Origin: Candidatus Omnitrophota bacterium
GTDB taxonomy: Bacteria > Omnitrophota > Gorgyraeia > Pluralincolimonadales > Pluralincolimonadaceae
Length of the DNA: 64,000 bases
NCBI GenBank assembly: GCA_003141835.1
Contig: PLNR01000007.1
Coordinates: 3,639-67,638 of the forward strand
Direction: 5' to 3'
Shown: positions 9,142 to 54,757 of the stretch, piece after piece
Layout of the letters: the number at the start of each line of letters is the position of its first letter
Position numbering within the stretch: the stretch's first letter is position 1
The notes under the pieces: model-generated
The model's input: the letters and a program-made list of their open reading frames with translations, nothing else
Told to the model about the DNA's origin: nothing
Databases searched by the model: none
Program-made: the position numbers and the translations under genes

Positions 9142-9740
9142 CGGAAGTCATCCGCATAAGCGCTTCGAGGCCCAGCGCGGCTGCCGTAAAAAAGGCAGCC
9201 TCGGTCCTAAAAAAAGGGGGACTAGTGGCTTTCCCGACCGAGACGGTCTACGGCCTCGGCGCGAACCTCCTCGATAAAAAAGCGGTAGGGAAGGTGTACG
9301 AAATAAAAAAACGCCCGAGGAACAAGCCGCTTACGGTGCATGTTGCCGATACGGCCTCGGTAAGGAAGATAACGGGGAATATCCCTCTCCGCGCCGCGAA
9401 GCTTATAAAGAAGTATTGGCCGGGCCCGTTGACGGTCATATTGAAGGATAGGCGCGGGAAAAAGACCGGCTTCAGGATGCCGGACAATAAGATAGCTTTC
9501 GGCCTGATAAAAAAAGCCGGCGTCCCGGTCGTGGCGCCGAGTGCTAATATCTCTGGTAATAAACCGCCGACGGACGCCAAAGGGGTATTGCGCGACCTCG
9601 ACGGGAAGATCGACATTGTGATCGACGGCGGAAAGACGGTGATCGGCATCGAATCTACGGTAGTCGATATGACCGGACGGACGCCTAAGATATTGCGCGA
9701 AGGCGCGATATCAAAAGCGGAGATCGAGAAGATATGGTAA
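9138..9740 (+). CDS. tsaC: L-threonylcarbamoyladenylate synthase (YrdC/Sua5 family)
   Basis: 200-aa ORF with YrdC motifs (AFPTETVYGLGA, KKRPRNKPLTVHV). Confidence 0.85.
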   Translation: MTEVIRISASRPSAAAVKKAASVLKKGGLVAFPTETVYGLGANLLDKKAVGKVYEIKKRPRNKPLTVHVADTASVRKITGNIPLRAAKLIKKYWPGPLTVILKDRRGKKTGFRMPDNKIAFGLIKKAGVPVVAPSANISGNKPPTDAKGVLRDLDGKIDIVIDGGKTVIGIESTVVDMTGRTPKILREGAISKAEIEKIW

Positions 9741-10638: not shown

Positions 10639-11891
10639 ATAATCTTAAGAGGGTGGATCCGGAGATCTACGAGGCGATCGTAAACGAGACGCGCCGCGAG
10701 GAGGAGAATATAGAGCTCATTGCGAGCGAGAATTTCGTGAGCCGCGCGGTACTCGAGGCGCAGGGCTCGGTCCTTACGAATAAATATGCCGAGGGTTATC
10801 CGGCGGCGCGGTGGTACGGCGGGTGCGAGCACATAGATGTCGCGGAAAAACTGGCCATTGAGCGCGCGAAGGAGTTGTTTAAGGCCGATCACGCCAACGT
10901 CCAGCCGCACTGCGGTTCGTCTGCTAACATGGCGGTATATTTCTCGGCGCTAAACATGGGCGACACGGTCATGGCGCTCGACCTGGCGTGCGGCGGCCAC
11001 CTCACCCACGGCCACAAGGCCAATTTCTCGGGAAAATATTTCAACATCGTCCCTTACATGGTCGACCGCAAGACCGAGATGCTCGATTACGACGAAATAG
11101 AAAAGACAGCCCTGCAATGCAAACCGAAGATGATACTTGCCGGCGCGTCTAATTATTCACGGGCGATAGATTTTCGAAGGTTCCGCCAGATATGCGACAA
11201 AGTCGGGGCGTATCTCATGGTCGATATGGCGCATTTCGCCGGGCTTGTCGCAGCCGGGATACATCCGGACCCGGTCCCTTACGCGGAATTCGTCACGACC
11301 ACGACGCATAAGACGCTTCGCGGGCCGCGCGGCGGCATGATATTATGTAAAAAAGAGTTCGCAAGGAAGATAGATTCGATGGTATTCCCGGGCATCCAGG
11401 GCGGTCCGTTGATGCACGTTATAGCCGCGAAAGCCGTGTCATTCAAAGAAGCGCTCAAGCCCGAATTCAAGGAATACCAGAACCAGATATTGAAAAATGC
11501 GCGTGCCCTAGCAGGGGCATTCCAGAAACGCGGCTACAGAGTCGTCTCAGGCGGGACAGATAACCACCTCTTCTCGCTCGACCTCAATACCAGCAAGGGC
11601 ATAAGCGGCAAGGACGCGCAGGAAGCCCTCGACAAGGCCGGGATAACCGTAAATAAAAACACGATCCCGTACGATCCGAACCCTCCGGCGAAGCCGAGCG
11701 GGATAAGGATAGGCGTTCCGGCGGTGACTACGCGGGGCATGAAAGAAAAAGATATGGAAGAGATAGCCGGCCTCATCGACGAAGTTTTAAGCAATATTAC
11801 CGACGCGGCCGTCGCAGGACGCGTAAAGGAAAAAGTGCGCGCGGTGGTAAAGAAGTTCCCGCTCTATCGCGACCTTTTGAGCGAGGCTTAA
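10635..11891 (+). CDS. glyA: serine hydroxymethyltransferase
   Basis: Start chosen at the internal ATG 10635, which is preceded by GGAGG. The track ORF's upstream extension lies inside rpiB. SHMT motifs are present ([20 protein letters not shown]). Confidence 0.9.
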
Positions 11892-27100: not shown

Positions 27101-27684
27101 CCTACTACATAAACGGCGCTTTCTCCTTCGTGTATAACCAGTACAAGGGCTTAAGGAATATATCCGTCGGTACTATCCAAAGGACTGCCGACGCCGATTA
27201 CGACGGCCAACAGTATTCTATATTATTAGACGGGGGCTATACCTTCAAGGCCGGCGACCTGCGGATAACCCCGCTGGCGTCATTGCAATATCTCCGCCTG
27301 CACCTCCAGAGCTATACCGAAAGCGGGGCGGATGCGCTTGATCTAAATGTGAAGAGCCAGAATTACGATATGCTCCAGTCGGGTGTGGGCCTGAGGTTAG
27401 AGCGGCCCTTCGAAGTCGAATACGGCATACTTACGCCCGAGGTCCACGCCAAATGGCTCTACGATTTCATAGGTGACAAACAGGAGACGACTTCTACGTT
27501 CTCCGGCGGCGGCGGCTCGTTCGCCACGCAGGGATTCAAACCCGCGCAAAACGCGTTAAATGCCGGGGCGAAGCTTACGTATAACATTAAAGATAACTGG
27601 TCCATCGACGCTAATTATGATTTTGAATATAAAGAAGACTTCGTTGCCCACACAGGTTGGATCGATCTGGGATACAGGTTCTAG
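24172..27684 (+). CDS. type Va autotransporter with PATR (autotransporter-associated beta-strand) repeat passenger and C-terminal beta-barrel
   Basis: Strong RBS (GGGGAGGAGGG) and a signal peptide. It has more than 10 degenerate ~45-50-aa repeats (GAGSTWTN...YVG..GTGTLTISNGGTVS). The ~280-aa C-terminus is an autotransporter beta-domain ending ...GWIDLGYRF. Confidence 0.8.
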   Translation: MSLKKETCVHRKIITLLIVSVIAVFAFIKPAGAATVNVTNTNDSGLGSLRQAITDLNATGADGDIIQFTVAGTITLATGLPLLTHETKFDPNGNDVTLTGKNGGTDAGKWFKVEGASTNTVTFGTGTTWSVAGGLVVGDNAKGSMTISGGGSVTNADKAYVGGGAGSNGAITVNGAGSTWTNAQDIFVGHLGTGTLTISNGGTVSDTYGNIGSNVGGIGTVTVDGAAGATHSTWTNNTGLIVGNTGTGTLNITNGGHVTNVWDSFLGVGAGSSGTVNVDGAGSTWTNTAKMYVGSDRTGILTISSGGSVSDAHGYIGGFAGSDGTVTVKNAGSSWVNVAGGGNDGGLSIGDIGTGTLHIQSGGAVTSDYVDLGINNTGTITVDGAGSTLTSNGDLNVGKAVTGIKTGTLTVTNGGAVSSVHGYIGKDAGSNGNATVSGAGSTWTNTTDLYVGSSGNGDLTISGGGTVTVAGGAGTVTVGNIAGSDGVLFIGNAGAAGTLNATEVTGGLGTATLAFNHTDAAYTFAPLISGSLSVEQDGAGTTAPTAANTYTGVTTLNAGTLGIATISNGGTASNLGAATSAAANLVFAGGTLKYTGADAATDRNFTIAANKAAVIEVTVNTLTMNGASTGVTNGGLTKTGNGTLVLAGASAYTGATAINAGRLAARNANALGNGSAVTVANGATLDVGTTNVTVNNTYTQDAGSTLALTVSGPSSSGKITSDHAAAVSAGSNVNVTVPGSIYIPNNATFTVIDAAAGAGVNAPGTITSSDPRLTFSAISSNGSLILMVNRSATGFSSIATNSNSAAVGAVLDNITNPTADMTTVLNTLEGLSASQAASALDTIVPTMDSGVVTTSTTSLNGFTGVTIERLGELFAQARDAETGVSTGSEGSKGIEAWGRGFGEYVHQSPRGTSNGYFATVWGTAIGGDIPVFDDRVRVGLSGGYARSDINSKDNSGRTDINSYQGTLYGGYIDGNNPYYINGAFSFVYNQYKGLRNISVGTIQRTADADYDGQQYSILLDGGYTFKAGDLRITPLASLQYLRLHLQSYTESGADALDLNVKSQNYDMLQSGVGLRLERPFEVEYGILTPEVHAKWLYDFIGDKQETTSTFSGGGGSFATQGFKPAQNALNAGAKLTYNIKDNWSIDANYDFEYKEDFVAHTGWIDLGYRF
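26270..27684 (+). repeat. autochaperone + beta-barrel-encoding segment; dispersed paralogous copy of 47730-49141
   Basis: The C-terminal ~470 aa of the two autotransporters align colinearly. Long identical runs include LQYLRLHLQSYTE, GADAL.LNVKSQNYDMLQS, LTPEVHA.WLYDFI and TTSTF.GGGGSFATQGF. Confidence 0.6.
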
Positions 27685-35842: not shown

Positions 35843-35932
35843 GGAGAGTTGGCAGAGCGGTCGAATGCGGCGGTCTCGAAAACCGTTGTCGACGTAAGTC
35901 GACCGGAGGTTCGAATCCTCCACTCTCCGCCA
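35843..35932 (+). tRNA. tRNA-Ser (anticodon CGA), long variable arm
   Basis: Acceptor GGAGAGT/ACTCTCC, anticodon loop CTCGAAA, 3' GCCA. It shares the 14-nt upstream leader AAATAGAGCGAGC with tRNA-Ser(UGA). Confidence 0.85.
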
Positions 35933-36025: not shown

Positions 36026-36068
36026 AACGCAACTTATTGAGGGATCGGTAAGTTGCGTTTGTTTTTAT
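36026..36068 (+). terminator. rho-independent terminator downstream of tRNA-Ser(CGA)
   Basis: 10-bp perfect stem AACGCAACTT/AAGTTGCGTT with a 14-nt loop, followed by TGTTTTTAT. Confidence 0.5.
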
Positions 36069-36116
36069 ATGTAGGCGCTTGCTTCCATTTGCTGTTAGTA
36101 GCGCCTAATAATTTAC

Positions 36117-37624: not shown

Positions 37625-37649
37625 AAAACTGTACGATTCCTGTATAGCG
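37625..37649 (+). repeat. intergenic motif AAAACTGTACGATTCCTGTATAGCG (copy A; copy B at 44892-44916)
   Basis: 24 of 25 nt are identical to 44892-44916. Both copies begin a few nt after a stop codon. A truncated relative (AAAACTGTATAG) is at 39574-39585. Confidence 0.5.
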
Positions 37650-37709
37650 AGCAGCTTGTATTAACGTAATTTATTTATTATAATGACGTTGGAAGCGGAG
37701 ATGTTCTGC

Positions 37710-37726
37710 TCCTCCACTCTCCGCCA
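37710..37726 (+). repeat. 17-nt direct repeat of the tRNA-Ser(CGA) 3' end (att-like)
   Basis: TCCTCCACTCTCCGCCA is identical to 35916-35932. Confidence 0.55.
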
Positions 37727-37761
37727 GAGATTCGTTACTATAAAGAGAACCCATTCCTATA

Positions 37762-39507: not shown

Positions 39508-39591
39508 AATATTCTTGTGCCCAAACAGTGCCCGCCTAAAGCGAAAACGCATCATAATGCATCACAATAGACGAAAACTGTATAGTTGAAA

Positions 39592-39628
39592 AAAGTCTAT
39601 TTGATGGATATTTGGTAGTATAATTAAA
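39592..39628 (+). promoter_or_regulatory. promoter-like conserved element (…TTTGGTAGTATAATTAAA) upstream of DUF1266-TPR gene; paralogous copy at 42303-42338
   Basis: About 30 of 36 nt are identical between the two copies. Each contains a TATAAT hexamer 10-55 nt upstream of the start codon. Confidence 0.4.
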
Positions 39629-39683
39629 CAAATGAATTGCCACCGCCGCTGAGTTCAACGTCGGGCAGTCAAAGAGAGGAACG

Positions 39684-41288
39684 ATGGCTGAAACAGATAC
39701 CAAGATCCAGGGGTTGGCAATTGCCAGTTTGTCGTTGGCGATATTGGCATATATGTCGGCATGGCTCATAATCGGCCTGCTTTTCGCGATCCCGTCGGTC
39801 ATTTGCGGACACCTGGCCTTGGCTCGCGCCAAGGGAGTACAGGGCGCAGCAGCCGGAAAACCCTTGGCGATCATCGGCCTGGTCGTCGGATATATCTCTA
39901 TAGTCTTGAGTATCCTCGTTGCTGCCGCGCTGGCCCTGGCCCTGTTCCTTACCTATCAACATTCACAAGAGGCAGTAGAGTTAGCCAGAAGAGAGGCAAA
40001 AATCACAGCAATTAATGTTTCTTATCTCACACACGACCAGAAGATGTGGATCTGGGCGACCTGCGCTCTGCTTACAGAGTCGAACGGGAAACGCCATGAC
40101 GTATTTGGCGGCGCCGTGCCGACGCCGGAAGAGATTGCGCAAGAAAAGCAATTATTGCGGGAGTGGTGGGACGTGTACGACAGAGAAAGCATGCTGAGTA
40201 CCCTTGATTGGTTGTGGCAAGGGGGCCACAGGGACGATTTTGAGAAACTGAGTTTACGCGTACAGTCGCTTGATCCCGGGAAATTGCAGGCCATGAAAGA
40301 CATGGCAAAAGACAACCCGGAGCTGCTTCACAGGATAACCGTGGTAGAAAAATACTACAAGGACGTTGGGCCAAAGGGTATCTGCGGATGGGACTATTCC
40401 CGGTATGTAGCCCTCTGTGGCTGGGGATATCTCGCCGGCTACTTGAGCGAAAAGGAAGCGTGGCAGCACGCATTACCGGCAGCGCTGATCCTGCAGGCAA
40501 GGTTTGATTCCTGGGATGACCTGGGAAAGAATTACCTGATCGGCCGTGAGTTCTGGTCCCTGGAAGATACCCGGAAGACCGGAGCCCGCTTCCGCCGGTC
40601 ATATATCAGGCTAACCATAGATCCAACCAGCCCCTGGAGAGAGTATCCTTGGAATCTTGATCTTGAAAACCGGAAAATAACAAAGTCCAATCAAATCAAA
40701 AGCACGGCAAACAACCCTAGAAAGCCAGAAGGTCTGGATGATCTCAGCCATAACTATTATGACAAGGACAACTTCGACCGATCCATTTCTGACTGCACTA
40801 AGGCTATAGAAATTAACCCTAAAGATGCAGTCGCCTATATTAACCGTGGTATCGCATACAAAAAGGAAGGCGACTACGATAAGGCGATCTCGGATTACAA
40901 TAGGGCGTTGGAGATCGATCCAATGTATGCCGCCGCTTACTCCAACCTGGGAAGCATCTATTGCGACAAAAAGAAAGAATACGACCGCGCCGTATCATAT
41001 TTTAGTAAGGCGATAGAAATTAATCCTGGTTTCGCCGCCGCGTATTACAACAGGGGAAATGCCTATAAGAATAAAAATAACAATGACCTGGCGATTTCTA
41101 ATTATAATCTGGCAATACAAATAAACCCGAAATACGCCAATGCCTATTACAACCGGGCGCATAGTTATTATAATAAACATGAATACGAAAAAGCGAGGGA
41201 AGATGTTAATAAGGCGGAATCGTTAGGGCAAGTGGCGGATCTCGAATTCCTCGAAGACCTTAAAAAAGCCTCAGGTAGAGATGATTAA
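39684..41288 (+). CDS. membrane-anchored DUF4190/DUF1266-like protein with C-terminal TPR repeats
   Basis: N-terminal TM hairpin, then a GWDYSRYVALCGWGYLAGYLSEKEAW motif (DUF1266-like), then 4 TPRs. The C-terminal tail (...LEFLEDLKKASGRDD) is homologous to the tail of the preceding TPR protein. Confidence 0.55.
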   Translation: MAETDTKIQGLAIASLSLAILAYMSAWLIIGLLFAIPSVICGHLALARAKGVQGAAAGKPLAIIGLVVGYISIVLSILVAAALALALFLTYQHSQEAVELARREAKITAINVSYLTHDQKMWIWATCALLTESNGKRHDVFGGAVPTPEEIAQEKQLLREWWDVYDRESMLSTLDWLWQGGHRDDFEKLSLRVQSLDPGKLQAMKDMAKDNPELLHRITVVEKYYKDVGPKGICGWDYSRYVALCGWGYLAGYLSEKEAWQHALPAALILQARFDSWDDLGKNYLIGREFWSLEDTRKTGARFRRSYIRLTIDPTSPWREYPWNLDLENRKITKSNQIKSTANNPRKPEGLDDLSHNYYDKDNFDRSISDCTKAIEINPKDAVAYINRGIAYKKEGDYDKAISDYNRALEIDPMYAAAYSNLGSIYCDKKKEYDRAVSYFSKAIEINPGFAAAYYNRGNAYKNKNNNDLAISNYNLAIQINPKYANAYYNRAHSYYNKHEYEKAREDVNKAESLGQVADLEFLEDLKKASGRDD

Positions 41289-42276
41289 ACGGATAGCGGC
41301 TGTTTTTTTATTTGTCGCGATAGCAGAGGGTGTATCTTTTGCCGACGTCATACACCTTAAATCCGGCGCTTCAGTCGAATGTATGATCAAGGTAGAAACG
41401 GACGACGCGGTAGTCGTCACGGTAAGCATCGGGGAAATGACGTATCCAAGGGACCTCATTGAATCGGTCTCGAAAGCCGGCGACGAAGAGAATACTAAGT
41501 TAAAAAAGAAATGGGAAGACCAGAAAAAACAGCGCGAGGCCGAGCAGGAACAGCAGAGGAAGCTCGCCGCAGAGCAGGAGAAATCAGCCCCGCCGAAAGC
41601 CCCGGAAAAGAAAGAGACCGCAAAAGAAAAGCCCCAGGAACAAAATCCGCCGGCAGAAAAACCAAAAGAGGAAAAACCCCTTAAATCTGTCGATACTATA
41701 AATTTCTACGATAAGTTTACATACAGATATGCCGTCCGCCTTCCGCCTAACTATAATATGAAGACCAAATATCCCGTCCTCTTCTGTTTTGACCCGGGGG
41801 CGAACGGAGACGATGCCGCCAAAAGATTCGCTTACGCCGCCGATAAACTAAACTGGATCATAGTCGGTTCGTTGGATGCGCACAACGGCCCTTGGCCTCC
41901 CATAAAAAGGGCGCAAGAGGCGATGCTAAAAGACATCCCGAAGCGATTCAGCGTGGATGAGAAACGGTTTTATGCGGCAGGCCTTTCAGGCGGGGCCAGA
42001 ATGTCGTTCTGTATAGCGCGTAACCATCCGGATCAATTCAAGGGCGTGATTGCCTGTGGCGCAGGACTTGATGATGCAAAAGAGGGCGTAATTAGAAATG
42101 TTGCCGTGTATCTTTGTGTCGGTAAGAATGATTCTAATCTGGGGGAGATGCAGGAGCTTTATAAAAAATTAGACATAGCCCATGTAAAAGCTTATAAGAA
42201 TGAATTTGAGGGAGGGCACGAATGGCCTTCTTCGGAGATCATTTCGCAGGCCCTGGACTGGATGACAAAACAGTGA
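41281..42276 (+). CDS. secreted alpha/beta-hydrolase esterase with K/E/P/Q-rich linker
   Basis: Signal peptide, a low-complexity charged region (residues ~70-130) and a GLSGG nucleophile elbow in the C-terminal hydrolase domain. Confidence 0.6.
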   Translation: MIKRIAAVFLFVAIAEGVSFADVIHLKSGASVECMIKVETDDAVVVTVSIGEMTYPRDLIESVSKAGDEENTKLKKKWEDQKKQREAEQEQQRKLAAEQEKSAPPKAPEKKETAKEKPQEQNPPAEKPKEEKPLKSVDTINFYDKFTYRYAVRLPPNYNMKTKYPVLFCFDPGANGDDAAKRFAYAADKLNWIIVGSLDAHNGPWPPIKRAQEAMLKDIPKRFSVDEKRFYAAGLSGGARMSFCIARNHPDQFKGVIACGAGLDDAKEGVIRNVAVYLCVGKNDSNLGEMQELYKKLDIAHVKAYKNEFEGGHEWPSSEIISQALDWMTKQ

Positions 42277-42302
42277 TTTAACACTTGCTACGTTTAGCTG
42301 AA

Positions 42303-42338
42303 AAGTCTATTTAAAGAATATTTGGTGGTATAATTAAA
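42303..42338 (+). promoter_or_regulatory. promoter-like conserved element (…TTTGGTGGTATAATTAAA), paralog of 39592-39628
   Basis: TGGTATAAT extended -10 at 42326-42334. It lies 17 nt upstream of the NHL gene ATG. Confidence 0.4.
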
Positions 42339-42350
42339 GAAAAAGAGAAT

Positions 42351-43496
42351 ATGACTAAAAAGAGATCAGGGGGAGTATGCACCTTATTTATCTTTCTCCT
42401 TGTTATATTCAACCCCACCTCCGGTTTTTCGGAAGAACAATATAATCCTCCGGCACCCGAACTGCAAATTCATCCTTTTTGTAAGCTTGGAACAGGCAGG
42501 GCAGATGCTTCATCACCCGCCATCAATCCGCCCGACGGTTTGGCGTTTACCGAGGACGGATTGTTGCTGGCCACGGATGCGATGAATCACAGAGTACAGA
42601 TTTTCGATCCCTATTCCGGCGAACATCTGGGGTCGATCGGCAATCCCGGTCTTTTTAAGGGTGAAATCGTATGTATTATTGTCTTACCTGACCAGGGATT
42701 GCTGATAAGCGATGAAAAGGCTAATCAGGTTTACCGGTTCAAACGGACCGCGGTTTCACCGGCGGCATTTCAATCAATGTCCCAGCCTCTCTTAAGCGGC
42801 GAAGGGTACAAAAAACTCTGCGGGATGGCGCGTGATTCAAAGGGGCGGATATATGTCGTCGACGGGATTACAGGGCACGTATGCCGGTATCTTCCGGACT
42901 TTAAACCGGACTCCAGTTGGAAATTTCAATCAAGACGTCCGGACAATGGGCTTATCCTCAATAAGGCCGAAGGGATCGCGATCGACGAGTCAAGAGGAAT
43001 GCTGTTTTTATCCAGCGAGTGGGACGGCATGATCCATGCATTTAATCTTGAAACAGGAGAATGGACAGGCAAATCAATCGGCCGGGGGACGGATGCTTTG
43101 ACCGGTAAACCGCTTGGTCAATCAGTGTTTTTCAGGTCTGTAGAAGGGCTTGCCATAATAGATAACTATCTTTTGGCAGTTGATGAGGGCGAAATCTCCA
43201 AATTAAAAAATTGTCACGGGCATCTGTTGGTTTTCGATCTGCGCAGTCCCGTGCTGTATGAAACGGATGCGGAGAAATGCCGGAAGAGAATGGCTGATGG
43301 ATTCTCAGATGGATTAGTAGGATGGTTTGGATCCTACGCGTCGCCTGATTCAGTCGCAATTTTCCCCGGCAGCACGGAACATCCGGAACCGCTGATAGCA
43401 GTTGCGGACCAAGGCTCGTACCTGGTCCAGGTTTATAGGTGGAAAGAAATCCAGGATGCGCTTCAGAAACTTAGAAAAGAAGAATTCCGTGATTAA
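42351..43496 (+). CDS. secreted NHL-repeat beta-propeller protein
   Basis: Signal peptide plus repeated NHL-like units (NHRVQIFD, YVVD, and others). Confidence 0.6.
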   Translation: MTKKRSGGVCTLFIFLLVIFNPTSGFSEEQYNPPAPELQIHPFCKLGTGRADASSPAINPPDGLAFTEDGLLLATDAMNHRVQIFDPYSGEHLGSIGNPGLFKGEIVCIIVLPDQGLLISDEKANQVYRFKRTAVSPAAFQSMSQPLLSGEGYKKLCGMARDSKGRIYVVDGITGHVCRYLPDFKPDSSWKFQSRRPDNGLILNKAEGIAIDESRGMLFLSSEWDGMIHAFNLETGEWTGKSIGRGTDALTGKPLGQSVFFRSVEGLAIIDNYLLAVDEGEISKLKNCHGHLLVFDLRSPVLYETDAEKCRKRMADGFSDGLVGWFGSYASPDSVAIFPGSTEHPEPLIAVADQGSYLVQVYRWKEIQDALQKLRKEEFRD

Positions 43497-44874
43497 ACGA
43501 TTACTGGCTAAATGGTACGGGGATTTTACGCGCGAAGAATTTATCAGAGTCTTGCTGCTAGGGACAGCGTTTGCTTTACTAATCGGTACTTACTGGACAT
43601 TGAGGCCGTTAAAGGACGCGTTATTCAAGGCATTTATAATTGGAGACGGTCTTCATAAAGATGCTTCGCCTCTGGCATGGGCCAAAATACTCTCTGTTTG
43701 CGCGTTGATCCCTTTGGTAATGTTTTATAGCCGTCTTGTGGACCGATTCAAAAGGCAGTCGCTCTTTTATGTGATAGGCGGATTTATGGCATGCGTGTTG
43801 GTTATTTTCAGCTTTTTATTTGTCCATCCGACGCTTGGATTGGCTAACAAGGTAGCTAGTCCGGAACGGTGGATTGGCTGGTTGTGGTATGTCTTTGTCG
43901 AGGCTTATGGTTCGTTGATGGTTGCGCTGTTTTGGGCGTATACTTCGGATTCGATTGACGCCGAATGTGCAAAAAAATCATTCCCGATGATCGTCATGTT
44001 TGGACAAGTGGGAGGGATTTTAGGCCCGCAGTCGACGCATTTACCGGCATTGCTGGGTTTTCGCAGCTGTGCGCCTTTGGTGGCGGCATGCGCTGTCAGC
44101 ACGGTGGTTATAGTGATGATAATTCGCCAGTTTGCCATAAGAGTGGCACGGCAGGCTGTTGCAATACCCGTCAAAGAGGTATGTTTGCCTCGTCCCAAGG
44201 AAGAAGGAGCCGGTTTTATTGAAGGGCTTCGGCTGTTAGTCAAAGACCGCTATTTGCTCGGCATATTCCTAGTCGTGGCTTTTTACGAAGTGGTCGTTAC
44301 AATTTTTGATTTCAATTTCAAGCGGCTCGTGTTTCAAAATGCCGTCGGGCACCAGGCTACGGCATCGTTGCTTGGTAATTACGGCACGGCGGTAAATACG
44401 GTTTCATTCCTATGCCTTGCATTGGGTATCGGTAATGTGCAGCGCCGGCTGGGAATGAAGACAGCCTTGTGCGCAATGCCATTCATAATCGGGATAATGG
44501 TAATAGGTTTCAAATTGGCTCCTTCGCTCGCCCCGCTTTTTTGGATTATGGTGGCCGCCAAGGCGCTCAATTACGCCCTTAACTCGCCCTCCTTAAAACA
44601 ACTCTATATCCCCACTTCGACGGCCGCTAAGTACAAAGCCCAGGCGTGGATCGAAATGTTCGGCGCTCGCAGCGCCAAGGCGGGCGGCTCAGGCATCAAC
44701 ACTTTGCTGAAAGTTTTCCAGACACGGGCCGGCGATGTTGCCGTTGGTTTTGCTTTATATGTTACTTTCGCAAGTTTATTTTCCGGGGTGATCCTTGTAT
44801 GCTGGTTCTTCGTCGCGCTTTTCCTTTCAAGGGAATATGATCGCCGGGTAAATTGCATTAAAGACAGCCGGTAA
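43456..44874 (+). CDS. TLC-family nucleotide (ATP/ADP) translocase-like transporter
   Basis: About 12 TM helices. The N-terminal region aligns by eye with Npt1-type translocases (YWTLRPLKDALF ~ NYTILRDTKDTL; AWAKI...LFYVI; HP; WYVFVEAYGSLMVALFWAY). The start could be ATG 43456 or GTG 43489, overlapping the NHL stop. Confidence 0.6.
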   Translation: MRFRNLEKKNSVIKRLLAKWYGDFTREEFIRVLLLGTAFALLIGTYWTLRPLKDALFKAFIIGDGLHKDASPLAWAKILSVCALIPLVMFYSRLVDRFKRQSLFYVIGGFMACVLVIFSFLFVHPTLGLANKVASPERWIGWLWYVFVEAYGSLMVALFWAYTSDSIDAECAKKSFPMIVMFGQVGGILGPQSTHLPALLGFRSCAPLVAACAVSTVVIVMIIRQFAIRVARQAVAIPVKEVCLPRPKEEGAGFIEGLRLLVKDRYLLGIFLVVAFYEVVVTIFDFNFKRLVFQNAVGHQATASLLGNYGTAVNTVSFLCLALGIGNVQRRLGMKTALCAMPFIIGIMVIGFKLAPSLAPLFWIMVAAKALNYALNSPSLKQLYIPTSTAAKYKAQAWIEMFGARSAKAGGSGINTLLKVFQTRAGDVAVGFALYVTFASLFSGVILVCWFFVALFLSREYDRRVNCIKDSR

Positions 44875-44891
44875 ATGATGCGTCCCATTCA

Positions 44892-44916
44892 AAAACTGTA
44901 CGTTTCCTGTATAGCG
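44892..44916 (+). repeat. intergenic motif AAAACTGTACGTTTCCTGTATAGCG (copy B)
   Basis: See 37625-37649. Confidence 0.5.
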
Positions 44917-44952
44917 CAACCTTTTTGGCTAAGAGAGGTTGCGTTTGTTTTT
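44914..44952 (+). terminator. rho-independent terminator after TLC transporter gene
   Basis: Stem GCGCAACC/GGTTGCGT followed by TTGTTTTTAT. Confidence 0.5.
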
Positions 44953-45022
44953 ATATTGCTTTTACGCTGTTTTAATGGTAAAAAGTACCAAACAACGTAC
45001 ACCCAGTTCAGCGTATATTAAA

Positions 45023-48000
45023 ATGAAAACGGAGGGCGCAGTGAAAAAGATTAACGCATTAATATTTACCGGATTTTTTATATTTATTGCGGCCACTTTA
45101 AACTCGACGACAGTTTTTGCGGCTCCTAAAATTTGGACTGGCAACAATTCATCTGCGTGGTCGGATCCTTTAAACTGGGGTGGCTCAGCCCCCGGCTCCG
45201 GCGATTCATTAACTTTCACGGGAACAAATACGACAAACTCGAATGATTTTACCGGTTATTCTTTTAGCGGCATTACTTTGAGTAGCGCTACCAATTCCTT
45301 TAATCTTGGCGGCAATCCCATAACTCTTACCGGAGATATCGTTGATACCGCCCCTTCGGCTCAAGGTGTTAATTTAAATATTACGCTGGGTAGCCCCGTT
45401 ACCTTCCGAACCACTGTCGGGACATTATTTATAAATACCGGATATACCGTAGATAATAACGGGAAACTGCTTACGGTCGATGCCGGCTATTGGGTTATTT
45501 TTGACTCTAACCTGATCGGAAGCGGCGGATTGACCAAGACCGGTAGTAGTACACTTGCATTAAGGGGGACTAACACCTACAGTGGCGCAACAAGGGTTAG
45601 TGCAGGGCTCTTGGAACTGGACAACGGCTTTGCCATTGGAGATAATTCGGCTGTCACACTGGATAATACAGCAGGGGTCTCGCTAAAACTTAACAATGCC
45701 AACGAGGCCATCGGCTCTCTTGCAGGGGGCGGCACCACCGGAGGCAATGTTGACCTGCAGACATTTACCCTATCAACCGGCGGCGATAACACTTCCACGG
45801 CATATGCCGGAGTAATGAGCGGGACCGGCGGCCTGACCAAAACCGGCAATGGCACCCTTACCCTCACCGGCATCAACACCTACACAGGACTCACAACGGT
45901 AACTGCCGGAGAGTTGGATTTGAACACAGTCGGTACCTCGATTGCCGGTAACCTCACGGTAAGCGGGGGAACCGCGAAGCTCCTCGCGGCAAGCCAAATC
46001 GCGGCTACCAAGAACCTGGTCGTTTCTGGCGGCACGTTCAATATTCAAGGTTTCAATCAAACGCTGGCAGGCGTGCAGATGACAAGCGGCAGCATCAGCG
46101 GATCGGGTGGTATCCTCACAAACAACACGACCGCCTACGATATGCAGTCAGGTGCAGTTTCCGCCATTCTTGCCGGCACGGCTGCTCTGAATAAGACTAC
46201 GGCCGGGACAGTGACCCTCTCAGGCGCCAACACCTACTCAGGCGCGACCACACTGACGGACGGCACACTGAGCGTCGGCGCGGCCGGGAACCTCGGCGCG
46301 GCGGCTTCTAACCTCGTGTTCGATGGCGGTACGCTGCAGATCACCGGTACGGCTTTAACCAGTATCTCGGGCATCGGACACACCGTCATTACCAATGCGG
46401 ACAAGACCGTCGGCCTGGATATCGACAATGCGGCCAACACATTCACATTTGATCGAGTCCTGAACCAGGCGACCGGAGGCCTGGTTAAATCGGGCGCGGG
46501 TACCTTAGTCCTCAATCAAGCCAACACCTACACAGGCGGGACGACTCTTAATGCGGGCAAACTGACCCTTGGCAACAATGAAGCTCTCGGTACGGGAAGA
46601 TTCACCATAAACGGCGGCACGCTCGACGTCACCGGCGTCACCTATCTGAATAATAATAACCCCCAGACCTGGGGCGGCGACTTTACCTTCGCCGGTTCCA
46701 ACATCCTGAATCTCGGCAATGGCGCGGTTACGATGGCAGCTGACCGGAAGATTACGGTCGACGGAAGCTGGATGGTTGTTGCCGGCAAGATCAGCGGCGC
46801 AGGAAAATTGACCAAGGACGGTGCAGGTATGCTTTATTTAACCGGCGCGAACGATTACTCAGGCGGAACGACTCTTAATGCGGGCGCACTGAGACTCGGC
46901 AACAATACTGCTCTCGGTACGGGGATATTCACCATAAACGGCGGCACGCTCGACTCCAACGGCATCACTCTGACTAATAACAATCTTCAAACCTGGGGCG
47001 GAGACTTTGGCTTTACCGGTACCAACGACCTAAATCTCGGCACTGGCGCGGTTACGCTTACCGCTACTCCTACGGTTACAGTGGATGCCAACACGCTGAC
47101 CGAAGGCGGTGCCATTGGCGGGGCGTTTGGCTTGACGAAAGACGGCGCAGGAACCCTTATTTTGACAGGCAACAACGGCTACACAGGCGTGACCGGGATT
47201 GCCAACGGAGTGCTTAACATCCAAAACGCCGGCGCGTTGGGAACCGTCGGTAATGGTACAAATGTCGGCATTGGCGGGGCACTCCAGATCCAGGGCGGTA
47301 TTACTACCCTGGCCGAACCCTTACACATCGCCGGCACAGGTATTTTACTGGATGGAGCATTGCGTAATATCCAAGACAATAACGAATACACCGGAGCTAT
47401 AACGCTCGACGTTAACTCGCGGATCAATTCCGATGCCGGCACATTGACGCTCAGCGGAGGCATAACAGGCGGGGGCAACGCTCTTACGGTAGGCGGCGCA
47501 GGTAACACGACCATCAACAGCGTCATTGGGGGCGCAGCTAGCGCACTAACCAAAGACGGCGCGGGCATCCTTATGCTTTCCGGAGCGAACACCTATACCG
47601 GACTTACTACGATAGGTGGCGGCACTCTTCAGGTCTCCAATGCTAACGCTGTCGGTACCGGAGCCCTTACCAACAACGCCACCTTGAGCGTGGGCACAAC
47701 GGCTCTGTCTGTTCCCGGCATATATACCCAGAACGCCGGTTCAGCTTTAACACTTACCGCCAATTCCACGTCCAACTTCGGTAATATTATCTCTCCCGCT
47801 AATGCCGTAGTGGATGCAGGAAGCACTGTTGCTGTCAACGTCGGCGGTTATATGCCCAATAACGCGACCCTTAAGGTGATCGCCGGCGGAGGAGGAGCCG
47901 GAGTAGCCGTCCCGACGACGATTACATCCAGCAATCCTAAATATACGTTTACGGGTTTGAGCTCAAACGGTAACCTCATTCTTACCGTAAACCGTTCAGC

Positions 48001-49141
48001 AAACGGCTTCGAACCTGATGGCCGTGATCCTAACGGCAAGAAGGTAGGCAAGGTCTTAGACGATGTCGTTGATCCCACTCCCGATATGAGAGGCATCCTG
48101 GATACCATGGACGCGATGAGCAATACCAACGTAGGCCAGGCGCTTTCAACCCTTAGCCCGGTCGTCGACAGCGGGGTTACTAATGTAAGTAACACCGCCA
48201 TAGTGCAGTTTGTCGGCGCTTCAGAGGACAGGCTGGTCAACCTCTATGCCCAGGCGCATAATGAGGAGACCGGCGTCTCTACCGGAAGCAAGGAAAAAAG
48301 CGGCTTCGAGGCATGGGGCAGGGGATTCGGCCAGGCCGCCCACCAGGATGCCAGGGGTAACAGTAACGGCTACTCCGCCACCATCTGGGGCACGGCCTTA
48401 GGCGGCGATATCCCCGCATTCCACGAGAAGGTTCGCTTCGGCGCAAGCGGCGGCTACGCCTCATCCAACGTAAACTCCAAAGACAACAGCGGAAAAACCT
48501 ACATCAACAGCTACCAGTCAACCCTCTACGGCGGCTACATTGACCCGGCGAAGCCCTACTACATAAACGGCGCCTTCGCCTTCGCATATAACACATACAA
48601 GTCAAAAAGGGATATCGTAATAGGCAATACTATCCAAAGAAGAGCCAACTCAAGCTATAGAGGCCAGCAGTACTCTGTTCTTTTAGACGGCGGCTACACA
48701 TTTAAGACCAAGAATGTAAATATAACACCCATAGCTTCACTCCAATACCTCCACCTGCACCTCCAGAGCTATACCGAAACCGGAGCAGATGCCCTCAACT
48801 TAACCGTCAAGAGCCAGGACTATGACATGCTCCAGTCAGCCCTTGGCGCAAAACTAGACCATCCCTTTGAGTTAAGCTACGGCACATTAACCCCGGAGGT
48901 CCACGCAAGGTGGCTCTACGACTTCATAAACGATAACCAGGATACGACATCTACCTTCGCAGGCGGCGGCGGCTCATTCGCCACCCAGGGCTTTACTCCC
49001 GCGCGTAACGCCTTAAACGTCGGCGGACGCCTTGCCTTGGCCACGAAAGGCAACTGGAGCGTCGATGCCAACTACGACTTCGAATACAAGCAGGACTACA
49101 CCTCACATACGGGTTGGGCTGATATTAGATATAAGTTCTAA
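45023..49141 (+). CDS. type Va autotransporter (PATR-repeat passenger), paralog of 24172-27684
   Basis: Signal peptide (the alternative GTG at 45041 sits 5 nt after GGAGGG). Passenger with NTYTGGTT.NAG.L-type PATR repeats. C-terminal beta-domain ending ...GWADIRYKF. Confidence 0.8.
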   Translation: MKTEGAVKKINALIFTGFFIFIAATLNSTTVFAAPKIWTGNNSSAWSDPLNWGGSAPGSGDSLTFTGTNTTNSNDFTGYSFSGITLSSATNSFNLGGNPITLTGDIVDTAPSAQGVNLNITLGSPVTFRTTVGTLFINTGYTVDNNGKLLTVDAGYWVIFDSNLIGSGGLTKTGSSTLALRGTNTYSGATRVSAGLLELDNGFAIGDNSAVTLDNTAGVSLKLNNANEAIGSLAGGGTTGGNVDLQTFTLSTGGDNTSTAYAGVMSGTGGLTKTGNGTLTLTGINTYTGLTTVTAGELDLNTVGTSIAGNLTVSGGTAKLLAASQIAATKNLVVSGGTFNIQGFNQTLAGVQMTSGSISGSGGILTNNTTAYDMQSGAVSAILAGTAALNKTTAGTVTLSGANTYSGATTLTDGTLSVGAAGNLGAAASNLVFDGGTLQITGTALTSISGIGHTVITNADKTVGLDIDNAANTFTFDRVLNQATGGLVKSGAGTLVLNQANTYTGGTTLNAGKLTLGNNEALGTGRFTINGGTLDVTGVTYLNNNNPQTWGGDFTFAGSNILNLGNGAVTMAADRKITVDGSWMVVAGKISGAGKLTKDGAGMLYLTGANDYSGGTTLNAGALRLGNNTALGTGIFTINGGTLDSNGITLTNNNLQTWGGDFGFTGTNDLNLGTGAVTLTATPTVTVDANTLTEGGAIGGAFGLTKDGAGTLILTGNNGYTGVTGIANGVLNIQNAGALGTVGNGTNVGIGGALQIQGGITTLAEPLHIAGTGILLDGALRNIQDNNEYTGAITLDVNSRINSDAGTLTLSGGITGGGNALTVGGAGNTTINSVIGGAASALTKDGAGILMLSGANTYTGLTTIGGGTLQVSNANAVGTGALTNNATLSVGTTALSVPGIYTQNAGSALTLTANSTSNFGNIISPANAVVDAGSTVAVNVGGYMPNNATLKVIAGGGGAGVAVPTTITSSNPKYTFTGLSSNGNLILTVNRSANGFEPDGRDPNGKKVGKVLDDVVDPTPDMRGILDTMDAMSNTNVGQALSTLSPVVDSGVTNVSNTAIVQFVGASEDRLVNLYAQAHNEETGVSTGSKEKSGFEAWGRGFGQAAHQDARGNSNGYSATIWGTALGGDIPAFHEKVRFGASGGYASSNVNSKDNSGKTYINSYQSTLYGGYIDPAKPYYINGAFAFAYNTYKSKRDIVIGNTIQRRANSSYRGQQYSVLLDGGYTFKTKNVNITPIASLQYLHLHLQSYTETGADALNLTVKSQDYDMLQSALGAKLDHPFELSYGTLTPEVHARWLYDFINDNQDTTSTFAGGGGSFATQGFTPARNALNVGGRLALATKGNWSVDANYDFEYKQDYTSHTGWADIRYKF
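47730..49141 (+). repeat. autochaperone + beta-barrel-encoding segment; dispersed paralogous copy of 26270-27684
   Basis: See 26270-27684. Confidence 0.6.
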
Positions 49142-49292
49142 CCCTAAAAATTTACCTATAAAAAGCAATTTAATTTCCTTGATAAAGCCTGCCTACATGG
49201 TAGAATCACTTCTATAGGTTAAGATATAACTCGGAGTGACATATGTTATTCTTTTTTTCCTCAGGAGTGCCCTTGTGGGCAAAATCACCGAA

Positions 49293-49967
49293 ATGAAAAA
49301 AGCATTCTTCCTAGGATTAGTTGTCGGGTTAATTTTCTTCTTAACATCTCCGGCGTACGCCGCCAATTTGTTGGCCAATCCCGATTTTGAGATGTGGGGG
49401 CCATGGGGTCCTGGCGGTGCCGAGGTTCCCGCAGATTGGTGGAGTATGTTCAATGACCCAAGCGTGATCGGAGCAAAGGAATCCGCTATAAAATGGAGCG
49501 GATCTTATTCCGCAAAGGCAGAGTTTGCGGGTACTGCCGCCGGATGGGGCGGATGGGGCCAGAGGATACCTTTTACGGCCGGAAACACATTGTACGTCCG
49601 CCAGCCTATGAATATGCCGGCGGCTTTGGGAGGCAACCATTCGCTGGCGACCCTGGAAATAGCGTTTGAAAGCGCGCCTGACGTTACCATAGGCTCTCCG
49701 GTTAAGGGATCGGTATCTGAGGCATACGGAAGCGAGTGGGGCGCCTGGCGGTGGGAGGCAGTTGCGCCGGCAGGCACGACTTCTATCAGGTATGCCGTCC
49801 TTTTGGAGACATGGGGGAGCGGCAGCGGCACTGCATATTTTGACGATTGTTATGCCGGTGATACTCCATGGGTGCCAATTCCGGAACCGGCGAGCATGTT
49901 ATTGTTAAGCTCCGGCTTACTCGGGCTGTTTGGTATCGCAAGAAGGAAGGATAATAGCAATAAATAG
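49293..49967 (+). CDS. PEP-CTERM sorting-domain secreted protein
   Basis: Start at the internal ATG 49293 with a signal peptide. C-terminus VPIPEPASMLLLSSGLLGLFGIARRK matches PEP motif + TM + basic tail. Confidence 0.75.
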   Translation: MKKAFFLGLVVGLIFFLTSPAYAANLLANPDFEMWGPWGPGGAEVPADWWSMFNDPSVIGAKESAIKWSGSYSAKAEFAGTAAGWGGWGQRIPFTAGNTLYVRQPMNMPAALGGNHSLATLEIAFESAPDVTIGSPVKGSVSEAYGSEWGAWRWEAVAPAGTTSIRYAVLLETWGSGSGTAYFDDCYAGDTPWVPIPEPASMLLLSSGLLGLFGIARRKDNSNK

Positions 49968-54667: not shown

Positions 54668-54757
54668 GGAGAGGTGTGAGAGCGGTTGAATCAGCACGCT
54701 TGGAAGGCGTGTAGGTCCGTAAGGGCCTCCAGGGTTCAAATCCCTGCCTCTCCGCCA
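54668..54757 (+). tRNA. tRNA-Ser (anticodon GGA), long variable arm
   Basis: Acceptor GGAGAGG/CCTCTCC, anticodon loop TTGGAAG, T-arm GTTCAAATC, 3' GCCA. Confidence 0.85.

What the first reader, a model, noticed from the sequence alone, without database searches (positions are those of the whole stretch)
43456..44874. TLC-family ATP/ADP-translocase-like nucleotide transporter encoded in a low-GC accessory stretch of a genome with a complete de novo purine operon
Seen in sequence: a 12-TM protein whose N-terminal third aligns motif-for-motif with Npt1-type nucleotide translocases (LRxxKDxL, K.W..P......LY..L....K..LFY, HP, W..VF.E.WGS.M..L.FW).

Established knowledge: TLC transporters import host ATP or nucleotides in Chlamydiae, Rickettsiales and some other host-associated or predatory bacteria, and in plastids.

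Inference: this organism may scavenge nucleotides or energy from a partner cell even though it retains purBCSLQFMDE. The gene sits beside secreted NHL/esterase proteins and two giant autotransporters, which fits a surface-interaction lifestyle. Its start codon overlaps the NHL gene stop.
Basis: partly seen in the sequence, partly recalled or inferred. Interest (0 to 1): 0.7.

Follow-up and report, generated by a model that had tools for sequence, protein, structure and literature searches.

The report
Divergent nucleotide-transporter gene paired with propeller gene
The gene really does encode a transporter of the family that intracellular bacteria use to take nucleotides from a host, but it belongs to a distant, uncharacterised branch, such genes are already reported in this phylum (Omnitrophota), and the new detail is that it always sits directly behind an exported propeller-protein gene.

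Summary
The ORF ending at 44874 matches Pfam TLC (PF03219) at 67.8 bits against a cut-off of 21. Its model has 12 helices, and its best structural matches are the solved ATP/ADP translocators AtNTT1 and C. pneumoniae NTT1.

It is not Npt1-type. It scores 71 bits on TIGR00769 (cut-off 387; AtNTT1 and CpNTT1 score 814-830) and is 21-23% identical to them. It belongs to an uncharacterised subfamily shared with Dependentiae and environmental Chlamydiae. The Omnitrophota copies form one clade, sister to a gene in Dependentiae-type synteny, which suggests horizontal acquisition. The five residues reported as important for transport in canonical translocases are kept (one E to D).

The likely start is GTG 43489, not ATG 43456. 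It overlaps the stop of the upstream NHL gene.

That NHL/TLC pair, with overlapping or closely abutting genes, was present in every assessable Omnitrophota-type locus (11 found from the TLC side, 17 of 17 from the NHL side; the two sets share some contigs). It was absent from all Dependentiae and Chlamydiae loci.

Translocase genes in otherwise biosynthetically complete Omnitrophota were published in 2023, so the main inference is not new. The fixed NHL partner and the Dependentiae affinity appear to be new. Substrate and direction of transport are untested.

The parts
42301..42342 (+). Promoter-like 42-nt element with a perfect TATAAT (42330-42335), ending 9 nt before the NHL ATG. A second copy lies at 39591-39632.
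   Evidence: the repeat finder family D8, 88% identity. The 21-nt core ATATTTGGTRGTATAATTAAA occurs exactly twice in the window, against 0 expected in 100 shuffles. Sequences read. Promoter function is inferred, not shown.
42351..43496 (+). Gene for an exported six-bladed NHL-repeat beta-propeller (381 aa). It has an N-terminal hydrophobic signal or anchor segment and a C-terminal helix at residues 364-380.
43489..44874 (+). Gene for a divergent TLC/NTT-family 12-TM carrier (461 aa from GTG 43489; 472 aa if ATG 43456 is used). The start overlaps the NHL stop (GTGATTAA).
   Evidence: PF03219 67.8 bits. TIGR00769 71 bits, below the 387.2 cut-off. A family profile matches AtNTT1 at E 3e-25 and CpNTT1 at 3.5e-23 over the full length. 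AF2 and Foldseek results. Start codon comparison with relatives. Key residues R50, K77, E149, D285 and K408.
44896..44956 (+). Intrinsic-terminator-like double hairpin followed by a U-run, 22 nt after the TLC stop. It closes the two-gene unit.
   Evidence: The terminator scan finds a 14-pair stem at 44913-44945 plus a T-run. RNA fold gives -22.2 kcal/mol, z -2.88, with 0 of 200 shuffles folding as well.
39591..39632 (+). Second copy of the promoter-like element, 52 nt before the DUF4190/DUF1266/TPR gene (39684-41288). That gene overlaps the esterase gene (41281-42276).
   Evidence: Gene content. This suggests that the two neighbouring units are co-regulated (inference).

Best explanation
Window 42301-44956 is a two-gene transcription unit in a genome whose closest relatives are labelled Candidatus Omnitrophota. 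It consists of a promoter-like element, a gene for an exported NHL beta-propeller, a start-stop overlapping gene for a 12-TM carrier of the TLC/NTT superfamily, and a terminator.

The carrier belongs to an uncharacterised NTT subfamily that is otherwise found in Dependentiae (TM6) and environmental Chlamydiae, both obligate intracellular symbionts of protists. The Omnitrophota copies form a single clade that is sister to a gene in Dependentiae-type synteny. This points to one horizontal acquisition followed by vertical descent together with the NHL gene.

The carrier keeps the MFS-like NTT fold. [quoted passage not shown] I therefore judge the most likely function to be uptake of nucleotides (ATP/ADP exchange, or NTP or dinucleotide import) from the periplasm across the inner membrane. 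This would be useful when the cell is attached to, or inside, a host or prey cell that supplies nucleotides.

The NHL protein is most likely a periplasm-facing accessory partner rather than an enzyme. Its role might be docking, substrate capture or stabilisation.

Shown: family membership, fold, residue conservation, gene order, overlap and phylogenetic position. Inferred: substrate, direction of transport, the HGT direction beyond the sister relationship, and any physical NHL-carrier interaction.
For: Family and fold:
- PF03219 67.8 bits.
- A profile of 32 relatives matches AtNTT1 and CpNTT1 end to end.
- Foldseek puts the five NTT structures first by about five orders of magnitude.

Key residues: R46 (R. 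prowazekii Tlc1) and K155, E245, E385 and K527 (AtNTT1) are named as key residues in PMC4776705. They align to R50, K77, E149, D285 and K408, each at least 95% conserved in 87 subfamily members.

Taxonomy: hits of 63-85% identity carry Omnitrophota titles; hits of 40-55% are Babeliales or Dependentiae and Chlamydiae.

Phylogeny: in an NJ tree of 133 sequences, Omnitrophota are monophyletic (100/100). They are sister to L011 (100/100), which has the Dependentiae synteny recJ-cmk-lon|TLC-TLC. The subfamily is separate from paralog B plus the references (97/100).

Operon:
- NHL lies directly upstream in the 11 assessable distinct Omnitrophota-type loci and in none of about 70 Dependentiae or Chlamydiae loci.
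- Starting from NHL, 17 of 17 loci with at least 56% identity and room downstream carry the TLC gene. None of the 35-42% identity NHL relatives does.
- The outer flanks differ between loci.
- Starts are TTG, GTG or ATG. They overlap the NHL stop (TTGA or ATGA) in seven of the relatives read and lie a few bases after it in L004 and L018.

Boundaries: promoter-like element and terminator.

Published context: translocases in Omnitrophota that have complete biosynthesis.
Against: - No member of this subfamily has been assayed, as far as I could find.
- It scores 71 bits on TIGR00769 while AtNTT1 and CpNTT1 score 814-830, and identity to them is only 21-23%.
- A non-canonical chlamydial NTT (SnNTT4) showed no nucleotide transport, and PamNTT4 carries NAD+. 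Substrate can therefore drift outside the canonical clade.
- I could not obtain the PamNTT1-5, SnNTT1-4 or Tlc1-5 sequences. The subfamily is therefore not placed relative to them.
- The tree is neighbour-joining with only two canonical outgroups.
- The genome has LPS synthesis (lpxB) and outer-membrane autotransporters. Nucleotides would therefore have to cross an outer membrane first, and no route for that is identified.
- No riboswitch or other nucleotide-linked regulatory signal was found near the operon.
- The conserved residues of the NHL protein are mostly the repeat signature itself. Its role rests on gene order alone.
Confidence: 0.55

Rival explanations
1. It is a classical energy parasite's ATP/ADP antiporter, functionally equivalent to Npt1/Tlc1/NTT1. 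The cell would swap its ADP for host ATP, which would explain why purine synthesis can be retained.
For: - All five key residues of ATP/ADP translocases are retained.
- The closest structural matches are ATP/ADP translocators.
- Relatives occur in Dependentiae, which are described as relying on such translocases for ATP.
- A retained pur operon suggests the benefit would be energy rather than building blocks.
Against: - It fails the TIGR00769 cut-off by a wide margin, while the true ATP/ADP translocators score 814-830.
- The key residues are said to affect substrate specificity, but they stay conserved here in subfamily A, and mostly in paralog B, as in AtNTT1 and CpNTT1. They therefore mark the family and do not identify the substrate.
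- Dependentiae carry this gene in tandem with a second divergent paralog, which suggests a division of substrates between the two.
Confidence: 0.25
2. It imports another nucleotide-type compound, for example NAD+ (as PamNTT4 does) or other NTPs by proton symport. It would serve salvage from lysed or attached cells rather than energy theft.
For: - Non-canonical NTT clades include an NAD+ carrier and a purine nucleotide carrier.
- The subfamily is highly conserved in environmental Chlamydiae (at least 78% identity across the 120 listed clusters). This is what an essential cofactor or nucleotide supply route would look like.
- Tandem paralogs in Dependentiae.
Against: No residue-level evidence discriminates between substrates. 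Whether the subfamily is related to PamNTT4 could not be tested, because no reference sequence was available.
Confidence: 0.25
3. The carrier has left nucleotide transport altogether. It would move an unrelated anionic solute that the NHL propeller binds or produces in the periplasm (for example a phosphorylated compound), and the TLC resemblance would be only ancestral.
For: - SnNTT4 transported no nucleotide in assays.
- The strict coupling to a propeller is specific to this clade.
Against: - The full set of charged residues used by nucleotide-transporting NTTs is kept under strong conservation.
Confidence: 0.12
4. The NHL-TLC adjacency is only inherited gene order in a young clade, with no functional link between the two proteins.
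For: - All carriers of the pair form one clade, so a single ancestral arrangement could explain the pattern.
- No fusion protein was seen among the hits.
Against: - The pair persists while TLC identity falls to 63% and NHL identity to 50%, and while both flanks are replaced.
- In most of these loci the stop and start codons still overlap, and several starts are weak TTG or GTG codons. This is what translational coupling looks like.
- Close NHL homologues were never found without the TLC gene when the contig allowed a test.
Confidence: 0.3

Closest known systems
Solved ATP/ADP translocators AtNTT1 (PDB 9j3j/l/m) and Chlamydia pneumoniae NTT1 (9j3n/o)
   Same: Same superfamily (PF03219) and the same 12-TM MFS-like fold (TM-score up to 0.77). 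Full-length profile alignment. Conserved R/K/E/E(D)/K charged set and the shared Y..LR..KD and E.(W/Y)GS...L.FW motifs.
   Different: Only 21-23% identity. About 30-40 residues shorter in the loops. 71 bits on TIGR00769 against 814-830. Paired with an NHL gene. No transport data.
Translocase paralogs of Dependentiae / TM6 (Yeoh et al. 2016, PMC4776705)
   Same: These are the nearest relatives outside Omnitrophota (40-55% identity). They belong to the same subfamily in the NJ tree, and one gene in Dependentiae-type synteny is sister to the Omnitrophota clade.
   Different: In Dependentiae the gene lies in a conserved lon | TLC-A TLC-B | rpsB arrangement with no NHL gene. Those genomes are described as lacking complete nucleotide synthesis. 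This window carries most of a purine operon.
ATP/ADP translocase (K03301) homologues already reported in Omnitrophota (Seymour et al. 2023, PMC10066038)
   Same: Same phylum and the same idea: a translocase as a symbiosis factor in cells with otherwise complete biosynthesis. That paper mentions one homologue (P. frigidipaludosa) related to a Babela massiliensis protein, which fits the affinity seen here.
   Different: The main clade in that paper is related to Flavobacteriaceae translocases, and its Babela-like type was a single genome. Here the Dependentiae-like type is found in 9 species-level loci of the genome collection and about 35 protein clusters of 62% identity or more. I found no mention of an NHL partner in the passages of that paper that I read.
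Non-canonical NTTs: PamNTT4 (NAD+), SnNTT4 (no substrate found), PtNTT5 (purine nucleotides), as summarised by Major et al. 2017 (PMC5381601)
   Same: These are also PF03219 proteins that lie outside the clade of classical transporters, and some come from environmental Chlamydiae.
   Different: Whether this subfamily coincides with any of them could not be tested. Their sequences were not retrievable with the tools, and the afdb50 library was not available.
NTT-HEAT and NTT-HEAT + cNBD modules of Cyanobacteria and others (Major et al. 2017)
   Same: A precedent for an NTT domain that is permanently associated with a non-transporter partner, either fused or in the same operon.
   Different: There the partner is a cytoplasmic C-terminal HEAT or cNMP-binding domain. 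Here it is a separate, exported NHL propeller encoded upstream. The carrier has no matched domain beyond TLC and only a short tail after TM12.

Membership tests
TLC / NTT superfamily (Pfam PF03219; TCDB 2.A.12 AAA family) | Significant match to the family profile above its curated threshold | tested here: met
   PF03219 E 1.1e-18, 67.8 bits against GA 21. A profile of 32 relatives matches AtNTT1 at E 2.9e-25 and CpNTT1 at 3.5e-23 over the full length.
TLC / NTT superfamily (Pfam PF03219; TCDB 2.A.12 AAA family) | 12-TM MFS-like fold most similar to the solved NTT structures | tested here: met
   AF2 pLDDT 89.9, with a helix pattern read as 12 TM helices. The top five Foldseek PDB hits are AtNTT1 and CpNTT1 (E 2e-13 to 5e-12). 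The next hits are generic MFS proteins at about 1e-7.
TLC / NTT superfamily (Pfam PF03219; TCDB 2.A.12 AAA family) | Charged residues reported as key for transport: R46 (RpTlc1) and K155, E245, E385, K527 (AtNTT1) | tested here: met
   They align to R50, K77, E149, D285 (a conservative E to D change) and K408, and are 95-100% conserved in 87 subfamily members. The residue list comes from PMC4776705.
TLC / NTT superfamily (Pfam PF03219; TCDB 2.A.12 AAA family) | Transport of nucleotides across a membrane | not testable with these tools
   Needs uptake assays in E. coli or proteoliposomes.
Canonical NTP/NDP exchange transporters (NCBIfam TIGR00769; Npt1/Npt2, Tlc1-5, plastid NTT1/2) | Score at or above the curated TIGR00769 cut-off (387.2 bits) | tested here: not met
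   Window protein 70.8-71 bits. Chlamydial orthologue 73.5. Babeliales 88.5-106. Positive controls AtNTT1 829.5 and CpNTT1 814.
Canonical NTP/NDP exchange transporters (NCBIfam TIGR00769; Npt1/Npt2, Tlc1-5, plastid NTT1/2) | Phylogenetic placement inside the clade of characterised transporters | tested here: inconclusive
   The NJ tree separates the subfamily (87 sequences) from paralog B plus AtNTT1 and CpNTT1 with 97/100 bootstraps. Only two canonical sequences were available, and the method is distance-based.
Canonical NTP/NDP exchange transporters (NCBIfam TIGR00769; Npt1/Npt2, Tlc1-5, plastid NTT1/2) | ATP/ADP counter-exchange | not testable with these tools
   Biochemical assay required.
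NTT-HEAT fusion proteins | C-terminal HEAT-repeat (with or without cNMP-binding) domain fused to the NTT domain | tested here: not met
   The protein has only a short tail after the last TM helix, and its only significant Pfam hit is TLC.
NHL-repeat beta-propellers (Pfam PF01436), for the partner protein | NHL repeat signature and a six-bladed propeller fold | tested here: met
Beta-propeller hydrolases (phytase-like PF13449, SGL/lactonase PF08450, PAL) | Family-level profile match and catalytic or metal-binding residues | tested here: inconclusive

The most novel reading that the evidence does not exclude
The exported NHL propeller is an obligatory partner of the carrier. It would be a periplasmic or surface module that captures, or docks the source of, the transported nucleotide. 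That would make this the first NTT/TLC transporter that works as a two-component device.

Its arrival from Dependentiae, together with a type III secretion cluster next to the pair in one relative, would mark this Omnitrophota clade as associated with protists or other cells, and as sharing a host niche with Dependentiae and Chlamydiae.
Probability: 0.15. Interest if true: 0.65.

Novelty: new variant of a known kind. Interest (0 to 1): 0.42.

Why it matters
Nucleotide transporters of this family are treated as a hallmark of dependence on a host cell. Omnitrophota are uncultured nanobacteria whose lifestyle is still debated.

Three results sharpen the published idea that some Omnitrophota feed on a partner cell:
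- One Omnitrophota clade carries a transporter whose nearest relatives are in obligate protist symbionts.
- That transporter keeps the transport-critical residues.
- It is locked to an exported propeller protein.

Together these give a concrete, clonable two-gene unit to test. The results also caution against annotating such genes as 'ATP/ADP antiporter', because the whole subfamily (Omnitrophota, Dependentiae, environmental Chlamydiae) lies far outside the clade in which substrates are known.

Tried and rejected
The only such hit scores 18.5 bits against a 395 cut-off, and Foldseek places MFS proteins about five orders of magnitude behind the NTT structures.
- ATG 43456 as the start: rejected in favour of GTG 43489, after comparison with ten relatives.
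- Esterase, TPR and autotransporter genes as parts of the system: rejected. They are absent from the neighbourhoods in L003, L004 and L005.
- NHL-TLC pairing outside Omnitrophota: looked for and not found. It is absent from about 70 Dependentiae and Chlamydiae loci and from the contexts of the 35-42% identity NHL relatives.
- Riboswitch or other known RNA element near the operon: none. Rfam was run on the window at gathering threshold and on four related loci at E up to 0.1; it found only tRNAs and a group II intron elsewhere.
- Low GC as a signature of transfer of this particular pair: not supported. In other Omnitrophota loci the pair is not consistently lower in GC than its flanks. The low-GC stretch here is a wider accessory region.
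- Linking the subfamily to a named, characterised paralog (PamNTT4, SnNTT4): failed. The third homology search and the cluster look-ups returned no informative names. The afdb50 fold library was unavailable. The paper describing the NTT structures is not in the library.
- Omnitrophota-specific changes in periplasmic loops as a hint of NHL docking: there is a roughly 4-residue insertion in loop 1 and three changes in loop 6. This is too weak to count as evidence.
Full report
**1. What is at the coordinates**

An ORF ends at 44874 on the + strand, with possible starts at TTG 43402, ATG 43456 and GTG 43489. In NCBIfam it matches TIGR00769 'NTP/NDP exchange transporter' at only 70.8 bits, against a curated cut-off of 387.2. 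The sole generic MFS-type hit scores 18.5 bits against 395.

A profile built from 32 relatives (alignment A1) aligns end to end with the two NTTs that have solved structures. These are Arabidopsis NTT1 (E 2.9e-25) and Chlamydia pneumoniae NTT1 (E 3.5e-23). An AlphaFold2 model (pLDDT 89.9, pTM 0.89) has a helix pattern that I read as twelve TM helices. Its five best Foldseek matches in the PDB are those same NTT structures (E 2e-13 to 5e-12, TM up to 0.77). Generic MFS transporters follow at about 1e-7.

**2. Corrections to the description**

*Start codon.* In ten related loci the protein begins M-I-K-R-[F/L]-L-x-K-W-Y-G or a close variant of it. The start is a TTG or an ATG. In seven of the relatives read it overlaps the stop of the upstream gene as TTGA or ATGA. 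In L004 and L018 it follows that stop by a few bases. Five of these relatives have no in-frame start further upstream. In the window the homologous codon is GTG 43489, within cGTGATTAA, which overlaps the NHL stop at 43494-43496. ATG 43456 has no counterpart in the relatives. The protein is therefore probably 461 aa, the length range of its close relatives.

*Similarity to Npt1.* 'Npt1-type' is too strong. Identity to AtNTT1 and CpNTT1 is 21-23%. As positive controls, those two score 829.5 and 814 bits on TIGR00769, where the window protein scores 71.

*Purine genes.* The window carries a PurB C-terminus (recognised by eye), then purC, a purS-purL fusion, purQ, purF, purM, purD and purE. It does not carry purN, purH or purK, so completeness is not shown.

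*Composition and neighbours.* The low-GC context is real. GC3 is 0.49 for NHL and 0.54 for TLC, against 0.69-0.77 for the pur genes. Two PATR autotransporters exist, at 24172-27684 and about 44975-49141.

**3. Whose gene is it**

The identical protein is already in public assemblies (P0001, on a contig of 90 kb). Proteins 72-85% identical carry names such as 'MAG: Npt1/Npt2 family nucleotide transporter [Candidatus Omnitrophota bacterium]'.

A scan of one genome per GTDB species found 452 relatives. The best nine (63-84% identity) are mostly from MAGs labelled Omnitrophota. The next group (40-47%) is Babeliales and Dependentiae. After that come environmental Chlamydiae at 42-44%.

All of these score far below the TIGR00769 cut-off: chlamydial orthologue 73.5 bits, Babeliales 88.5-106, and the second Dependentiae paralog 60.8. 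The gene therefore belongs to a distinct, uncharacterised NTT subfamily.

In Dependentiae this subfamily sits in a conserved arrangement, lon | TLC-A TLC-B | rpsB. In Chlamydiae the orthologue is very strongly conserved, at 78% identity or more across the 120 listed clusters.

**4. Phylogeny**

I built a neighbour-joining tree from 133 non-redundant sequences and 444 columns, using Kimura distances and 100 bootstraps. It was rooted on AtNTT1 and CpNTT1, whose sequences I reconstructed from the hmmsearch alignments. The results were:
- The Omnitrophota sequences are monophyletic (100/100).
- They are sister to L011 (100/100), a contig with Dependentiae synteny and 37% GC.
- The next more inclusive group holds sequences with Babeliales titles.
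- The subfamily as a whole is separated from paralog B plus the references (97/100).

This is what a single transfer from a Dependentiae-like donor into an Omnitrophota ancestor would give. The method and the outgroup sampling are modest. The sister relationship is shown; the direction of transfer is an inference.

**5. Residues**

Yeoh et al. (PMC4776705, Fig. [quoted passage not shown] They are R46 of R. prowazekii Tlc1, and K155, E245, E385 and K527 of AtNTT1. In my alignment these correspond to R50, K77, E149, D285 and K408 in the numbering of the 472-aa translation. Each is 95-100% conserved among the 87 subfamily members, with E385 replaced conservatively by D. A further 26 positions are identical in AtNTT1, CpNTT1 and at least 90% of the subfamily.

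This argues that the transport machinery is intact. However, these residues stay conserved in subfamily A, and mostly in paralog B, as well as in AtNTT1 and CpNTT1. They therefore mark the family and cannot by themselves identify the substrate.

**6. The invariant partner**

Its close homologues (46-100% identity, about 45 clusters) come from contigs whose lengths match those of the TLC homologues.

Direct tests of the linkage gave these results:
- NHL lies immediately upstream of the TLC gene in the 11 distinct Omnitrophota-type loci where the upstream DNA is present. It lies upstream in none of about 70 Dependentiae or Chlamydiae loci.
- Starting from the NHL side in JGI metagenomes, all 17 loci with NHL at 56% identity or more and room downstream carry the TLC gene. 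No locus with a 35-42% identity NHL relative does. Some of these 17 contigs are also in the first set.
- The flanks outside the pair differ from locus to locus. They include an esterase and autotransporter; patatin and dCMP deaminase; Sel1 and Ni-SOD; and type III secretion genes with a transposase-like gene.
- The two proteins diverge in parallel. TLC identity falls from 84 to 63% while NHL identity falls from 77 to 50%.

In the window, the unit is preceded by a 42-nt promoter-like element with a perfect TATAAT, and it is closed by a strong hairpin plus U-run.

The thing to explain is therefore a two-gene, probably translationally coupled unit, not a lone transporter. The conserved residues of the NHL family are mostly the NHL repeat signature, and no histidine is among the invariant columns. 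From memory, histidines form PAL's zinc site. I therefore favour a binding or scaffolding role over catalysis, but only gene order supports any role at all.

**7. Mechanism proposed**

- Shown: an NTT-fold carrier with an intact charged-residue set, and an exported propeller made from the same message.
- Inferred: the carrier takes nucleotides from the periplasm into the cytoplasm, by ATP/ADP exchange or by net NTP or dinucleotide import. This would happen when the cell has access to another cell's nucleotide pool. The propeller would assist on the periplasmic side.

The organism makes lipid A (lpxB) and autotransporters, so it has an outer membrane. How nucleotides would cross that membrane is unknown.

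The rivals are a classical ATP/ADP antiporter, an NAD+ or other nucleotide importer, a carrier that has left nucleotide transport, and a functionally meaningless adjacency. They are listed with their tests in the rival explanations.

**8. Comparison with what is known, and novelty**

Seymour et al. 2023 (PMC10066038) reported K03301 translocase homologues in Omnitrophota. They found them in 11 of 31 Aquiviventia genomes, 20 of 36 Omnitrophia genomes, and one Gorgyraia genome whose copy is related to a Babela massiliensis protein. They interpreted these as symbiosis factors in cells with otherwise complete biosynthesis.

Major et al. 2017 (PMC5381601) showed that NTTs are widespread, that most lie outside the characterised clade, and that some are fused or linked to HEAT or cNMP-binding partners.

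Three things appear to be new:
- The Dependentiae-like type is a recurrent Omnitrophota clade rather than a single case.
- Its sister is a gene in Dependentiae-type synteny.
- It is strictly coupled to an exported NHL propeller. Among the papers returned by a full-text search of the library for the NHL repeat together with translocase or nucleotide-transporter terms, none contained 'NHL repeat'.

I rate it a new variant of a known kind, of moderate interest.

**9. Limits**

- No transport data exist for any member of this subfamily, as far as I could find.
- The sequences of PamNTT1-5, SnNTT1-4 and Tlc1-5 could not be retrieved. The afdb50 library was unavailable. The paper describing the NTT structures is not in the library. 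I therefore could not map the ATP-contacting residues or place the subfamily among the characterised paralogs.
- The phylum assignment rests on the record titles of relatives, not on marker genes of this window.

Noticed in passing
L005 1-6693 (ENA ERZ21831017 contig_85), upstream of its NHL-TLC pair at 6832-9383: Genes typical of a non-flagellar type III secretion system (SctN-like ATPase with T3SS_ATPase_C, YscO, HpaP, SctQ/FliMN_C) lie directly upstream of the NHL-TLC pair in this 64%-identical relative. A group II intron lies at 11062-11684.
   Followed up: no
window 39591-39632 and 42301-42342: A 42-nt element (88% identical copies; the 21-nt core is exact apart from one R position) with a perfect TATAAT precedes both the DUF4190/DUF1266/TPR-esterase unit and the NHL-TLC unit. 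None is expected by chance. This suggests a shared promoter or operator.
   Followed up: partly
window 35843-35932, 37702-37732, 54668-54757: The low-GC, low-GC3 accessory stretch (about 36-54.7 kb) lies between tRNA-Ser(cga) and tRNA-Ser(gga). A partial copy of the tRNA-Ser 3' end (17 nt exact) at 37702-37732 looks like an att-site remnant of an integration event.
   Followed up: partly
window 36052-36070 / 44938-44956 and 37625-37649 / 44892-44916: Pieces of the terminator region after the TLC gene recur 7-9 kb upstream: a 19-nt exact copy and a 25-nt copy at 96%. They may belong to a family of intergenic terminator or repeat modules.
   Followed up: no
L006, L007, L008, L011 and many of L021-L069: In Dependentiae/Babeliales the subfamily gene is the first of a tandem pair of divergent TLC genes (paralogs about 28-35% identical to each other). 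They sit in a conserved recJ-cmk-...-lon | TLC TLC | rpsB neighbourhood, and ankyrin-repeat genes lie nearby in two of the loci (L006, L008).
   Followed up: partly
L084 and proteins P0185-P0304: The chlamydial orthologue of this subfamily (468 aa) is unusually conserved, at 78% identity or more across the 120 listed clusters from Parachlamydiaceae and other environmental Chlamydiae. Even so, it scores only 73.5 bits on TIGR00769.
   Followed up: partly
window 1263-4157: A single 964-aa ORF carries a PurS domain (residues 83-149) in front of the FGAM synthase linker and AIRS domains. It is an apparent purS-purL fusion with a GTG start.
   Followed up: no
window 24172-27684, 44975-49141, 49236-49967: There are two PATR-repeat autotransporters (1170 and about 1390 aa) and a PEP-CTERM sorting-signal protein. 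These indicate an outer membrane with exposed surface proteins and an exosortase system.
   Followed up: no
window 43672-43683 (TLC residues 62-65 in 472-aa numbering): Omnitrophota copies carry a short insertion (I-G-x-G) in the first predicted periplasmic loop, which 93% of the Dependentiae and Chlamydiae members lack. There are also three clade-specific substitutions in the last periplasmic loop.
   Followed up: partly
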